Source: Eledone cirrhosa (Eukaryota). Taken from it: a stretch of 22,256 nucleotides of DNA. The notes below the pieces were generated by a model. It worked only from the letters and a program-made list of their open reading frames with translations, ran no database searches and was not told the origin of the DNA. Positions 5,851 to 14,114 of this stretch are shown here, in pieces. Every line of letters starts with the position of its first letter. The stretch's first letter is position 1. The DNA lies in assembly GCA_964016885.1 (NCBI GenBank), contig CAXHJY010000507.1, positions 1 to 22,256 on the forward strand, given 5' to 3'. The translations under genes and the position numbers were made by a program.

Positions 5851-6746
5851 AGAAGGGAGGGGGTGGGGGGAGAAAAAGGAAGACGGAAAGGACAAAGCTA
5901 TTTGTATAAACTTATGAGTCTAGTTTAAATCACCTGGGGTACGACATGTCATTTTGAAAGAGTGTTCAGGACGCGATCATATGCTTCAATACACTCCAGT
6001 TTTTCCGGTCTGTTATTATTATTGTGTAAGATGTTTAGGTTTTTTAGTTTTTCTCTCTCTCTTCAACTTTTGACTGTGGGAATTTCCGTAACAAGTAAAG
6101 AAATTGGAATGAAGTTAAACCCACAGAGAAGTGCAGTTTCTAAATATATGATACTTGTCATATATATATATATATATATATATATATATATATATAGTAA
6201 TAATAATAATAAATTTGAAGACTAAAATCCAAAGAGGGCTCGATAAGGATAAATATATATCAAATATATAAGAACCGTAGAGCAAATATTTATTAAAATA
6301 ACATATATATATATATATATATATATATATATATATATATATATATATATATATATATATATAATATATATATATATATCCTTTCAAGGATTTACACAAA
6401 TCCAGCCTCCTGTCATTTCATTATAATATTTAACTCCGTAATAGCACCACCAACTACAAAAACAAAGACGGTTGAACTGCTTTACGTTGAGTACTCTCTA
6501 TATTATTGCATTACGATTGACCATACGGAATAGACCAGCTCTATACAGTGGTGAACCTCAAACCTGAATATATATATATATATATATATATATATATATA
6601 TATATAATAGAATTACGATTTAGCTTCAGGCATAGTTGTAAACAGATATGTATTTGAATTTTGTATATATATACATATATATATATATATATATATATAT
6701 ATATATATATATATATATATATATATATATATATATATATATATAT

Positions 6747-6878
6747 AGTACATTATGAAGAGAGAAGAAACATTTAGATATAATTAGTAATAAGATGTAT
6801 CATACCTAAACTGCTTTAGGTATGATACATCTTATTACTAATTATATCTAAATGTTTCTTCTCTCTTCATAATGTACT
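6747..6878. repeat. Perfect palindrome with 64-bp arms and a 4-nt loop (CTGC)
   Basis: 6747-6810 is the reverse complement of 6815-6878. Confidence 0.95.
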
Positions 6879-7238
6879 TTTAGCTCTGATACTGGTTCAG
6901 TCTAATCCAATCGGATTGGTTAGTCCCAGTTATTCATAGAGCAACATCGGTTAAGGTTGACACCATTAACTCAAGGATGGATGTGGATATATTCATGTAT
7001 ATGTGTGTGTCCGCATGTATCTGTGTGTTTCTCAATATATTGTATATATATATATATATATATATATATATATATATATATATATATATATATATATATA
7101 TATATATATATATATATACATATATGACTCCAGTTCCCCAGTGAATTAACAACCCAACAAGGAACTGGGCATATCAGAGTATTGACAATATCATACACCT
7201 AAACAACATATGTACTTGTCTATACCATACTAATTCAA

Positions 7239-7293
7239 ACTGCCTGAAGAGGTCACAGCCAAAGATGGCTGTCACTGAAATATATATAGCAGT
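7239..7293 (+). ncRNA. Minimal type I hammerhead ribozyme motif (Penelope-like element type)
   Basis: ACTGC [stem I] CTGAAGA G-GTCACAGCCA AAGA TGGCTGTCAC-T [stem II] GAAA TATATA [palindromic stem III] TA GCAGT [stem I']. AATAAA follows at 7294-7299, then (TA)n. Confidence 0.8.
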
Positions 7294-7480
7294 AATAAAC
7301 GAAGCTAAATTTTAATCATTTGACTTTTATTTAACTTTATTTTATATATATATATATATATATATATATATATATATATATATATATATATATATATATA
7401 TATATATATATATATATATATATATATATATATATATCAAAATGAAAATCCGAAATCAGGGTAAAATTCCAATCATTTAA

Positions 7481-7554
7481 TCACGACACATGTTTCAATA
7501 AGAGATAGATCGATTGTGAAGCCATGATCGTTTATCACTGATCTCATCAGGTGA
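7481..7554 (-). ncRNA. Minimal type I hammerhead ribozyme motif
   Basis: The reverse complement reads TCAC CTGATGA [long imperfect stem II] GAAA CATGTG TC GTGA, giving stem I TCAC/GTGA and a GUC cleavage triplet. Confidence 0.72.
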
Positions 7555-8164
7555 AAATGAATTGTCTTCAAATTCTTGAGATGAGGGAGAAAAAATAACG
7601 ATGTTCTCTCACATAATTCATTCCCTCATATGGAGACACACCAGTCAGTCAGAGACAAGGCGACTGCTATTAGCTTTAGTTGAGGTCATAAAAGTTTTCA
7701 GATTTCTATCGCTGCAAAAGACGCTGGACATCAAACAAATCCGTAGGGATACAGTCAGTCACAGTTAGAAGTGAGTGGGTACACACACACTCCACACCCG
7801 CATACATCGGCTCGAGATCAAAGAAAAATAAATACATATATATACACACATCAACACAGTATTAAACCCGTAAAATATCTGTCTTCAAGAAACCACTGGT
7901 AAATGAATGAATTATCTTACGTTGTTTATTACATAACTATATATATATATATATATATATATATATATATATATATATATATATAAGGAAAAAAGATGAA
8001 ATCAAAAATGCAACTGGAGTATTTTAAAAAAAAATATATTTATTTGGTTCCTTTACCGGTTTCGCAGTTCTTGTGCTTTTCAAAAGTAGAATTGAGATGG
8101 AGAGTTTGTGGTTTTTCTCTCTATATATATATATATATTAAATATAGAAATGGCTTCTACAGGA

Positions 8165-8219
8165 CTAGAACTATTTCATTCGGGAGAAATCATCAGGAAT
8201 CCCTGGGCTTCCTGATGAT
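8165..8219 (-). ncRNA. Degenerate hammerhead-like core overlapping an 11-bp hairpin
   Basis: The reverse complement reads CTGATGA TTTCTCCCGAAT GAAA TAG TT; stem I is not supported. Inverted repeat ATCATCAGGAA (8189-8199) / TTCCTGATGAT (8209-8219). It lies just 3' of the GIY-YIG fragment on the same strand. Confidence 0.4.
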
Positions 8220-8261
8220 GTATTCTGCTATGTATTGAGTACCTCACTTACTGTGGTTTAA

Positions 8262-8547
8262 ACATTTCCACGATACACAAATGACAGATTTTTGAGAAAG
8301 CCATATTTCGGTATGCAGGTGCTTTCGAAATCGTTCCCCAAGATAGTGTATATTTTGTCCTTTAAATTACAAATTAGATGTGAAAGTGAAGTGGAAGATA
8401 TTATCGGACCTATTAAATGTACGTTTGTGGTTGCATCACCGTTCTTTGAATTTTGTAGAAATGGCACGTATATAGTTAAATAGTTGTGTCTCTAGTTTTT
8501 ACTGTGCACTTATAAATTAAGTTTTTGTCTAAGCAATTGTTTTGTAA
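8262..8547 (-). pseudogene. Penelope-like element GIY-YIG endonuclease fragment (about 95 codons, 3 frameshifts, 1 stop)
   Basis: Manual translation across frames: LQNNCLDKNLIYKCTVKTRDTT / NYIRAISTKFKER*CNHKRTFNRSDN / SSTSLSHLICNLKDK / YTLSWGTISKAPAYRNMAFSKICHLCIVEMF. It shows LIY..YIG-like (YIR), FKxR..H, STxLS and CxLCxxE motifs in the expected order. Confidence 0.85.
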
Positions 8548-11640: not shown

Positions 11641-12300
11641 TACTACTACTACTACTACCACTACTACCAACTTCGCCACCACCACCACTACTACTACTAC
11701 TACTACCACCACCACCACCACTACTACCACCACCACCACCACCACCACCACCACCACCACTACTACTACTACTAGTACTACTACTACTACCACCACCACC
11801 ACCACCACTACTACTACCACTACTACTACCACCACCACCACCACCACTACCACCACTACTACTACTACTACCACCACCACTACTACTATTACTACTACTA
11901 CCACTACTACTACTACCACCACCACCACCACCACCACCACTACTACTACTACTAGTACTACTACTACTACTACTACTACTACTACCACCACCACCACCAC
12001 CACTACCACCACTACCACCAGTACTACTACTACTACCACCACCACCACTACTACTATTACTACTACTACCACTACTACTAGCACCACCACCACCACCATC
12101 ACCGCCACCACCACTACTACTACTACTACTACTACCACCACCACCGCCACCACCACCACTATTACCACCACCACCACCATCACCGCCACCATTACTACTA
12201 CTACTACTACCCCACCACCACTACTACTACTATCACCACCACCACCACCACCGCCACTACCACCACCACCACCACCACTACTACTACTACTACTACTACT
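11641..12300. repeat. Mixed (CTA)n/(CCA)n trinucleotide microsatellite
   Basis: Directly visible; source of the poly-T/P/L/V ORFs. Confidence 0.97.
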
Positions 12301-12564
12301 GCCATCCATCAAAGGCGGGAAAATATAGAAATGACCTGAATAATGAGATAACAAGGAGCCACACAATAAACGACGTTTCATTAAAAGTACGTCTCTACAT
12401 TACATTTACTTTGTGTCGTCTGTTGTTTTTAGAAGCCCCCCCCCCCACCCCCACCCCTCTCTCTCCTTTCTCAGATTAATCTCCCAACACTAATTATAAA
12501 AGCTTGAGAACAAAAATTCAAGATGTCCCCCTCTCACCCTCGGAACTCTTTTCCTGCCCACTTT

Positions 12565-12600
12565 TCTCCTGATGAAGCGCTCATGCCCGAAACGTCGTCC
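12565..12600 (+). ncRNA. Degenerate minimal hammerhead core
   Basis: CTGATGA AGCGC TCAT GCCC GAAA CG TC. Both core boxes and a GUC triplet are present, stem II is mismatched, and the 3' strand of stem I is lost. Confidence 0.45.
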
Positions 12601-12806
12601 CCCAGCCCCCACTCTCAAGCGTGAAACTAATATTAACATTTTCTACTGCCTCTTCGCTTCCACGATGTTGTTTTTTTTTGTTTACAGTTTCAACTATAAT
12701 ATATATATATATATATATATATATATATAAAGAAGGATGTGTGGTAAGGAACCAGATGGACCATAACGCACCATAGTACTCAATACTTAGGGTAGTAGAG
12801 TGGGTA

Positions 12807-12941
12807 ATAGGAAAAGGTTTAAACCCGACGGCAGAGCTTAAGCCGTTTCGACGGCTATTTCTGTCCAGAAATAGCCGAACAGTCCAGAAATAACCGTCGA
12901 AACGGTTTGAGCTCTGCCGTCGGGGTTAAACTTTTTCCTAT
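12807..12941. repeat. Imperfect palindrome with 57-bp arms (52/57) and a small internal duplication
   Basis: 12807-12863 versus the reverse complement of 12885-12941. GTCCAGAAATA(G/A)CCG is duplicated at 12863-12877 and 12882-12896. Confidence 0.92.
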
Positions 12942-13529
12942 ATATATATATATATGTAGGAGGTGAGTTTTATTGTAGCACAATAAAGCAATGCAAATAT
13001 CGGATAAGTAGCACTCTACATGCGCATAATAAAATACTTGGAACTCTTTTAACCATCTTTTGATCTTATATTATATTATATATATATATATATATAGTAA
13101 TAAGAATATTTATATTTATATATGTTTAATACAATTATAAATATGGAGGGTAGTTCTCAATACTAGATGGTATGACAAAAGGCTCAATGCAAATTTTCTA
13201 GTGTTTTACAGAGCCGAGATACAAAGTGTTAAAACACTTTGTGTATATATAATTAATTTTGCTTTGATTCTGTTTTAATGTGATTCTGATTTTGAATTTA
13301 AATTGCCATTCAGAAATAATATAATATATGTCACCCCACTGTAGATCAATATATACATATGTATCTGTATGTCTCTTGCGTTGGAAAGGAGGTCATGTAA
13401 GTGTACAAACATTGAAAAATGCTCCGAAGATCCCAAGCCTCGGTTTGGATGAAACAATTGTAAGCGAATAAATGCTTTGAACATAGTTTTGATTCCTGTG
13501 AATTCTCTCTCTCTATATAACGAAGGCAG

Positions 13530-13602
13530 TGGACCATAACGCACCAGAGTACTCAATACTTAGGGTAGTAGAGTGGCTAATAGGAAAATAACATTTTCCT
13601 AT
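13530..13602 (+). repeat. Second copy of 12757-12815 with a collapsed palindrome
   Basis: 59 bp with 2 mismatches. It ends ATAGGAAAA TAACA TTTTCCTAT, followed by (TA)n. Confidence 0.9.
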
Positions 13603-13731
13603 ATATATATATATAAATATATATATATATATATATATATATATATGCAAAAGTTTTATTTAAAATTGTTGGGTTACAACAAGTAAATATTTTATAACCG
13701 ATATAAAGCACTCGACAAGTTTTTGGAGTAG

Positions 13732-14114
13732 ATATACGATATTAAACAAATGGAAACTATATTTATAAAACCATATTTATTTCATTATACATATTTCAGG
13801 GATACCATATTAAAAATATGGCATGCCTTCGTCAGATAAAATACAATATATAAACTGTTTTATAAATAATTTTGACGTACCATAAATATAAGCGACCATT
13901 AAGGTAGGAAGCTGGCTTGGTAGTACCAAGCCAGCTTCCTACCTTAATGGTCGCTTATATTTATGGTACGTCAAAATTATTTATAAAACAGTTTATATAT
14001 TGTATTTTATCTGACGAAGGCATGCCATATTTTTAATATGGTATCCCTGAAATATGTATAATGAAATAAATATGGTTTTATAAATATAGTTTCCATTTGT
14101 TTAATATCGTATAT
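13732..14114. repeat. Palindrome with 191-bp arms and a single unpaired central G (13923)
   Basis: The centre is GCTGGCTTGGTA-G-TACCAAGCCAGC. Arm-end coordinates are symmetric and I saw no mismatch by eye. Confidence 0.95.
14005..14062 (+). ncRNA. Hammerhead-like motif in the palindrome arm (mirror copy on the - strand at 13784-13841)
   Basis: CTGACGA AGG-C-ATGCCATATT TTT AATATGGTAT-C-CCT GAAA TATG TA. Stem II is strong and stem I is weak and AT-only. AATAAA follows at 14065-14070, then (TA)n. Confidence 0.65.

What the first reader, a model, noticed from the sequence alone, without database searches (positions are those of the whole stretch)
6160..14114. Landing zone of (TA)n-flanked islands carrying hammerhead ribozymes, palindromes and a GIY-YIG relic
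Seen: within 8 kb there are about seven CTGANGA..GAAA motifs of unrelated sequence (7239, 7481, 8165, 8911, 12565, 13784, 14005), four long inverted repeats and a GIY-YIG fragment. Nearly all lie in short islands bounded by (TA)n, with the HHR pointing towards the TA tract. Established: Penelope-like elements (PLEs) and retrozymes carry minimal type I HHRs and often have inverted terminal duplications. Inference: several distinct PLE families or non-autonomous derivatives repeatedly target, and perhaps generate, (TA)n. Whether these particular families are described is unknown to me.
Basis: partly seen in the sequence, partly recalled or inferred. Interest (0 to 1): 0.75.

Follow-up and report, generated by a model that had tools for sequence, protein, structure and literature searches.

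The report
Penelope retrotransposon pile-up in TA repeats
This 8-kb stretch is a pile-up of cut-off pieces (nearly all tail ends) of at least eleven families of Penelope-like jumping genes, a known kind that lands in TA repeats and carries hammerhead-ribozyme motifs; their mirror-image insertions likely form when both ends of the cut DNA copy the same RNA from two fixed start points.

Summary
In detail: 7 CTGANGA..GAAA motifs against 0.75 in shuffles. The islands are truncated Penelope-like elements (PLEs). Eleven families link to RT/GIY-YIG coding copies elsewhere in this 3.0-Gb genome: seven Hydra-clade, four Neptune/Nematis-type. One has an intact 716-aa ORF in a 3,531-bp tandem unit. The site is dense but not special: 48 strict hammerheads in 600 kb of evenly spaced DNA, mostly pointing into (TA)n. 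Hydra PLEs with hammerheads in (TA)n are published, including one octopus family. No retrozyme was found in the window, and nothing shows that PLEs make (TA)n.

Less ordinary: head-to-head inserts pair a short end with a tailed end (31 of 32), either arm may be the longer, and arms share private variants. Many copies stop at ribozyme helices rather than at the cleavage site. The best mechanism (inferred) is both cut DNA ends priming on one uncleaved RNA. This scan noted the short/long rule, tail hairpin and variant cores before, on other DNA. New members of a known kind.

The parts
6160..14147 (.). (TA)n tracts (28 in 8 kb) that separate the islands; the insertion target
6197..6302 (-). Family A (Hydra clade): essentially the 89-nt tail alone. 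The family's hammerhead-like motif has a CAGAAGA core in 16 of 16 loci and is not in this copy
6380..6567 (+). Family B: 3' end with 147-nt tail, cut below the hammerhead seen in other copies; coding link not tested
6607..6663 (-). End of a repeat found in 3 other loci, two-armed in one; likely a PLE end, not linked
6748..7042 (.). Family D: palindrome 6748-6878 plus 165-nt tail; partial-tandem structure in other copies; no hammerhead core seen, coding link not tested
7126..7342 (+). Family E (Hydra clade): short-ended arm, hammerhead core at 7244
7438..7876 (-). Family F (Hydra clade): short-ended arm, hammerhead core at 7550; 140-nt tail in other copies
7884..7937 (+). Family S: arm that begins in stem II (GAAA at 7889); whole hammerhead in other copies; coding link not tested
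7986..8121 (-). Family G (Neptune/Nematis-type): short-ended arm with U3-A8 variant core TTGAAAA at 8083
8139..8259 (.). Family H (Neptune/Nematis-type): decayed two-armed insert, cores at 8196 (-) and 8212 (+, rest deleted), part of the tail
8260..8546 (-). Family I (Hydra clade): frameshifted GIY-YIG fragment; the family's own 3' end is about 79% like R
8860..9152 (+). Family J (Neptune/Nematis-type): short-ended arm, hammerhead core at 8916
9198..9327 (.). Second family J insert: 53-nt inverted short arm plus tail
12526..12698 (+). Family N (Neptune/Nematis-type): old copy (79%), core at 12569, stem I not formed at the cleavage site
12730..12938 (.). Family O (Hydra clade): mini-palindrome of two arms that stop in stem II, plus 80-nt tail; the family's core is the U3-A8 variant and is lost here
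12956..13076 (.). Family P (Hydra clade): inverted tail piece joined to a short arm that starts at stem III (13020)
13250..13515 (+). Family Q: repeat ending at a TA site that runs on into a tail in other copies; likely a PLE end, not linked
13516..13599 (-). Second family O insert: part of the tail with a few bases of each arm
13647..14109 (.). Family R (Hydra clade), young (99%): head-to-head arms, left with 91-nt tail, right short; cores at 13835 (-) and 14011 (+)

Best explanation
The islands are truncated copies of at least eleven (TA)n-targeting Penelope-like retrotransposon families, and their head-to-head form likely arises when both ends of a cut (TA)n tract prime reverse transcription on one uncleaved element RNA at two fixed sites. 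Shown: family identity, two fixed 3' ends per family 44-147 nt apart, short-plus-tailed pairing, shared variants between arms, 5' stops clustered at ribozyme helices. Inferred: the GIY-YIG nuclease cuts both strands; one end primes at the proximal TA-like site first, the other at the distal site and displaces the first cDNA; both cDNAs often stop at the folded hammerhead and are joined by end-joining. Each insert splits a tract and leaves TA on both sides, so targets persist and families pile up. Confidence: identity about 0.95, the one-RNA mechanism about 0.5.
For: Coding links: R, I, O, F, E and P, A and G, J, N and H. Hydra motifs in alignment A1. The model of the O protein matches telomerase RT best (Z 13.3, rmsd 3.7, 209 aligned; tied with other RTs). 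Pairing: O 17 of 18 and R 14 of 14 two-armed inserts with both ends seen; the exception ends 14 nt into the tail; none long+long or short+short. Unbiased sample: 41 of 52 TA-anchored palindromes have a one-sided 15-250 nt tail. O arms share 24 private and 21 recurrent variants; recurrent sites agree 21 of 25 within inserts against 44 of 551 between. Tailed arms that stop at or within about 30 nt of the short site: L006, L035, L039, L041. Public-run contigs show TA loose ends at both sites. PAc protein cuts and extends both strands from two RNA sites and needs no ribozyme cleavage (PMC11167929, parts 1-2).
Against: In R, arms disagree at 9 of 23 recurrent sites (between inserts 167 of 246); 3 of the 9 come from using one arm as reference, the rest may mean two templates. 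Gene conversion between arms, or two RNAs from one locus, would also give shared variants. 5 of 52 sampled palindromes are symmetric and 6 have far ends. Family N showed a single end in 13 of 13 copies. PAc start sites were not homologous to the target, so TA pairing may not be needed, and TA is common in these AT-rich tails (no chance control run). The O and R copies were the best search hits, so young and long copies are over-represented. No RNA evidence was obtained.
Confidence: 0.6

Rival explanations
1. An asymmetric RT dimer binds two RNA molecules (or two units of a tandem or circular RNA); one subunit always starts at the short site and the other at the long site.
For: Explains the pairing and free arm lengths; PAc is predicted to be a dimer (PMC11167929); tandem arrays exist; some R arms differ at recurrent sites.
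Against: Needs an extra source of asymmetry; arms match by subfamily and private variants, so both RNAs must come from one locus; does not by itself predict tailed arms stopping at the short site.
Confidence: 0.25
2. One cDNA folds back and copies itself (self-priming, as proposed for rotifer Penelope), primed at the long site and finished at the short site.
For: Gives identical arms and short+long ends; O mini-palindromes are centred on the stem II hairpin; self-priming proposed in PMC3846280 (passages).
Against: The short arm could never reach further 5' than the long arm, yet it does in L155, L171, L174 and L182 by 275-1,296 nt. H palindromes carry the core on both arms, not once in the loop. 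It may still make some O mini-palindromes.
Confidence: 0.1
3. The short palindromes are non-autonomous retrozyme- or MITE-like units that spread as units, and the locus is a special landing site that they create.
For: Very high copy number of O, A and H minis; tandem hammerhead arrays occur elsewhere; the long H copy lacks the nuclease core.
Against: Junction centres differ from copy to copy by eye; 11 families have coding parents; window islands are not tandem; similar clusters occur in random DNA.
Confidence: 0.05

Closest known systems
Hydra clade of C-terminal-EN Penelope-like elements (Craig et al. 2021, PMC8557442; sections 6 and 11, passages, supplement part 2 of 59), including Hydra-1_Obim of Octopus bimaculoides
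   Same: RT plus C-terminal GIY-YIG, DKT, CxCX5C linker, CxxC and CxH, no CCHH, hammerhead near the 3' end, (TA)n targets, inverted truncated copy, one-sided tail.
   Different: At least seven families in one genome where the paper lists one for an octopus; units 3.5-3.9 kb (paper: generally under 3 kb); RWR in place of RWK; tails 80-140 nt (paper: 30-40 bp); U3-A8 and CAGAAGA cores. The published Hydra-1_oBim core motif was not in the loci held.
Neptune/Nematis PLEs (as defined in PMC8557442)
   Same: G, H, J and N parents have a CX2-5CxxC linker; G, J and N have a C-terminal GIY-YIG; J and an N relative have DKG-type motifs.
   Different: Neptune and Nematis were not told apart (no tree); the H copy lacks the nuclease core.
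Minimal hammerheads of metazoan PLEs (Cervera and De la Pena 2014, PMC4209133; parts 1-2 of 4)
   Same: Type I fold, long stem II, 1-2 bp palindromic stem III (E, F, G, J, R), pairs on opposite strands, U3-A8 variant as in Schistosoma Cercyon.
   Different: H, O and A have 4-6 bp stem III that might work as monomers; an estimated 10^5 motifs, above the 4,000-9,000 called remarkable there (different descriptors).
PAc Poseidon of Anolis (Frangieh et al. 2024, PMC11167929; parts 1-2 of 4)
   Same: Two internal start sites that define the tail; both strands cut and extended; hammerhead cleavage not required.
   Different: No strand difference in start site and no target homology were reported there; here the two ends pair strictly and the sites begin with TA-like bases.
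Non-LTR retrozymes (bioRxiv 10.64898/2026.07.22.740005; part 1 of 5)
   Same: Type I hammerheads, PLE ancestry.
   Different: Defined by tandem non-coding units; window islands are single or head-to-head pieces of coding elements.

Membership tests
Hydra-clade PLE | Single ORF, RT followed by C-terminal GIY-YIG | tested here: met
   O 716 aa and R 742 aa uninterrupted; RT fold; Atlas neighbours carry GIY-YIG/RVT_1 in part of their members. Pfam alone found nothing.
Hydra-clade PLE | DKT in place of DKG | tested here: met
   O, R, P, F; an A-like ORF in L265. Not covered for E and I.
Hydra-clade PLE | RWK motif | tested here: inconclusive
   RWR at that place in O and R.
Hydra-clade PLE | CxCX5C linker | tested here: met
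   O, P, I, F, A, R in L027 (first C changed in L042). Not covered for E.
Hydra-clade PLE | CCHH absent; CxxC and CxH flank the conserved E and N | tested here: met
   By inspection of alignment A1 and of E and A.
Hydra-clade PLE | Canonical hammerhead near the 3' end | tested here: met
   E, F, I, P, R canonical; O U3-A8; A has CAGAAGA, not canonical. Cleavage not tested.
Hydra-clade PLE | Insertion into (TA)n | tested here: met
   95 of 111 ends of ten families, both clades pooled; loose ends in public contigs.
Hydra-clade PLE | Generally under 3 kb (descriptive, not diagnostic) | tested here: not met
   O unit 3,531 bp, R about 3.9 kb, owing to 3' UTRs over 1 kb.
Hydra-clade PLE | Groups with reference Hydra RTs in a tree | not tested
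Neptune/Nematis PLE | CX2-5CxxC linker before a C-terminal GIY-YIG | tested here: met
   J, N, G; H has a decayed linker and no nuclease core in the one long copy (64).
Neptune/Nematis PLE | Assignment to one clade by RT tree | not tested
   No references held.
Non-LTR retrozyme | Tandem non-coding units, each with a hammerhead | tested here: not met
   No tandem hammerhead unit in the window; such arrays occur in L073, L103, L105.
Non-LTR retrozyme | Circular or cleaved RNA | not testable with these tools
   No RNA holder listed.

The most novel reading that the evidence does not exclude
Penelope-like elements integrate by two primers running in tandem on one RNA, and the folded hammerhead acts as a reverse-transcriptase stop signal rather than a cutter, stamping out hundreds of thousands of ribozyme-sized palindromes; some families have let the catalytic core drift while keeping the fold.
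Probability: 0.3. Interest if true: 0.7.

Novelty: new member of a known kind. Interest (0 to 1): 0.4.

Why it matters
How PLEs make their inverted copies and tail, and what their hammerheads do, are open questions. An intact, recently active Hydra element (O; 40 of 40 top hits identical over 265 bp) with two mapped start sites makes both testable in vitro. The genome may also hold about 10^5 hammerhead motifs, and short 'unknown' palindromes in (TA)n can be annotated as PLE ends. The locus itself has no sign of a function.

Tried and rejected
Rfam: no hammerhead hit, only spurious miRNA matches. Pfam and PDB sequence searches did not recognise the Hydra proteins. The genome search with island E returned no candidate, not even itself; copies were found in fetched loci instead. 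A generic scan for U3-A8 cores in random DNA gave 3 against 0-3 in shuffles, so no genome-wide claim for that variant. The first palindrome scan had a faulty filter and was redone. No RNA holder listed; runs X1, X4 and X5 are contigs of unknown kind and may include the source sample, so they show ends and joints only. Rejected: cleaved RNA as the usual template (no O arm of 35 starts at the cleavage site); fold-back for long inserts; a special locus. Islands 9478-9769 and 10023-10345 could not be assigned. Literature: five searches and one on cephalopod hammerheads found no paper stating the short-plus-long rule or stops at ribozyme helices; subscription papers, Repbase, Dfam and the repeat library of PMC13282606 were not seen and may hold these families.
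Full report
Setting. The window is the whole of contig C534 of a 3.0-Gb genome. It is probably an octopus; that rests on a recalled resemblance of a short repeat and was not tested.

Observation. All seven motifs are there, far above shuffles: loose 7 against 0.75, strict 4 against 0.004. Five pass a second descriptor. 8196 has a long stem III and is decayed; 12569 lacks stem I. The long inverted repeats and the GIY-YIG relic are real. 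An eighth hammerhead with a U3-A8 core (8083) and four half-motifs were missed.

What the islands are. All 18 islands tested match other loci among 1.55 Mb of fetched DNA, with best identities of 79-99%, so they arrived at different times; two further segments (9478-9769, 10023-10345) stayed unassigned. Following copies upstream linked eleven families to coding PLE sequence. Hydra-type: R (742-aa ORF), I, O (716-aa ORF in a 3,531-bp unit, five hits spaced by that length), F (nuclease end about 1.1 kb upstream in 7 of 24 loci), E and P (one locus each), A (4 of 16 loci). Neptune/Nematis-type: J, N, H (one long copy, without nuclease core), G (one locus). The Hydra proteins show DKT, CxCX5C, CxxC and CxH and no CCHH, as defined in section 11 of PMC8557442, whose supplement lists Hydra-1_Obim with (TA)n preference and a hammerhead. 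The O model (mean pLDDT 54) matches telomerase RT best over residues 194-407. B, C, D, Q and S look like PLE ends but were not linked.

Is the site special? Sixty evenly spaced 10-kb stretches (55 from the four largest contigs) hold 48 strict hammerheads against 0-2 in block shuffles. (TA)5+ lies within 200 nt downstream of 23 of 48 and upstream of 6 of 48, against 13% for random positions. Leaving out 13 internal tandem copies, 27 of 35 have TA within 300 nt (null 18%). Perfect TA tracts make up 4.3% of the sample. Scaling gives roughly 2 x 10^5 motifs, a crude figure since two arrays supply 15 of the 48. Ends of ten window families number 111 in the sample (mean 1.85, max 18 per 10 kb) against 14 in the window's 8 kb, and 95 of 111 abut TA. 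The window is in the top few percent, not unique.

Anatomy. Each of ten families has two fixed 3' ends, 44-147 nt apart. [quoted passage not shown] Nine of ten short sites are followed by TA in the element, as are both long sites whose continuation I saw. Head-to-head inserts pair a short with a tailed end in 17 of 18 O and 14 of 14 R cases with both ends in view (best search hits, one O insert with an unseen end left out); the exception ends 14 nt into the tail at another TA. In the unbiased sample 41 of 52 TA-anchored palindromes have a one-sided tail, 5 are symmetric and 6 have far ends. Either arm can reach further 5' (short arm in 6, long arm in 10 O inserts, the two mini-palindromes tied). 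O arms share 24 private and 21 recurrent variants, against 13 and 4 unshared; R is weaker, 14 agree and 9 disagree.

Stops. Of 35 O arms in the random sample, 25 begin between the stem II loop and just past GAAA, 7 reach beyond the core, 3 are tail only, and none begins at the cleavage site. Of 20 H copies (the first 20 of 627 exact matches to a pattern that itself starts at stem I), 15 begin within a few bases of the foot of stem I. Contigs of public runs of unknown kind agree: for O, TA loose ends at both sites and strand-switch joints at the stem II loop; for H, the main 5' loose end lies in the stem I strand in all three runs.

Mechanism. PAc protein cuts and extends both strands, starts at two internal RNA sites that define the tail, and does not need ribozyme cleavage (PMC11167929). 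Applied here (inference): both ends of a cut (TA)n prime on one RNA. Priming at the long site first would cover the short site and give a one-armed insert; short first leaves the long site free; neither site can be used twice. This gives the pairing rule, shared variants, and tailed arms that stall at the short site. Two RNAs on an asymmetric dimer remain possible. Fold-back of one cDNA (PMC3846280) fails for four long inserts. Why copies stop at helices is unresolved: a roadblock, or an RNA end made by processing. The hammerheads may still cut precursor RNA as dimers (PMC4209133); activity was not tested.

Earlier notes of this scan report the Hydra identity, the short/long rule, a tail hairpin and variant cores on other DNA, two of them in this genome. 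I had reached the first two and the variant cores before reading them. The tail motif I checked afterwards: RCTC within 22 nt of the short site in 10 of 12 tails, a GAGY partner in 7 of 12, with no chance control.

Verdict. Real, and well explained as new families of a known kind at an ordinary dense site. The added value is the evidence on template sharing and stops, and an intact element with which to test it. Also read: PMC13282606 parts 1-2 of 3 (31 recently active PLE families in Octopus vulgaris; hammerheads not mentioned in those parts) and bioRxiv 10.64898/2026.07.22.740005 part 1 of 5 (its supplements not seen).

Noticed in passing
L073, L103, L105 (random sample): Tandem arrays of 310, 467 and 556-bp units, each with a canonical hammerhead; retrozyme-like.
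   Followed up: no
L259-L274, core near 1780 after orientation: Family A has a fixed CAGAAGA core (U4 replaced by A) with stems I, II and III apparently kept, in 16 of 16 loci.
   Followed up: partly
L226-L238; window 12569: Family N keeps core and stem II with position 7 varying (G, A, T), but its stem I partner seems to lie about 30 nt past the cleavage triplet; one end type only in 13 of 13.
   Followed up: partly
L164, L165 (family F ORF): Long low-complexity inserts in the ORF after the RT core and before the linker, without breaking the frame, reminiscent of the inserts in rotifer Penelope ORFs (PMC3846280).
   Followed up: no
L246:4650-5800: The long H copy goes from the linker straight into the 3' UTR without a GIY-YIG core; H may be mobilised in trans.
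   Followed up: partly
L111:4801-5044: Several short re-starts around the hammerhead core at an H junction, suggesting repeated template jumps at the stop.
   Followed up: no
window 10366-10956: Tandem of 103/118-bp units running into a SINE-like repeat (label recalled).
   Followed up: no
window 1-1357, 1477-2052, 4357-5823, 15277-16679, 17775-21306: Satellite arrays of 47, 166, about 160, 108 and 93 bp; the contig is almost all repeat.
   Followed up: no
L153:7575-8200, run X4: Contig depth rises steeply over the O 3' UTR in this small run of unknown kind, and one contig skips 531 bases across the ORF end.
   Followed up: no
window 10023-10345: The only tested segment with no match in 1.55 Mb of fetched DNA.
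   Followed up: partly
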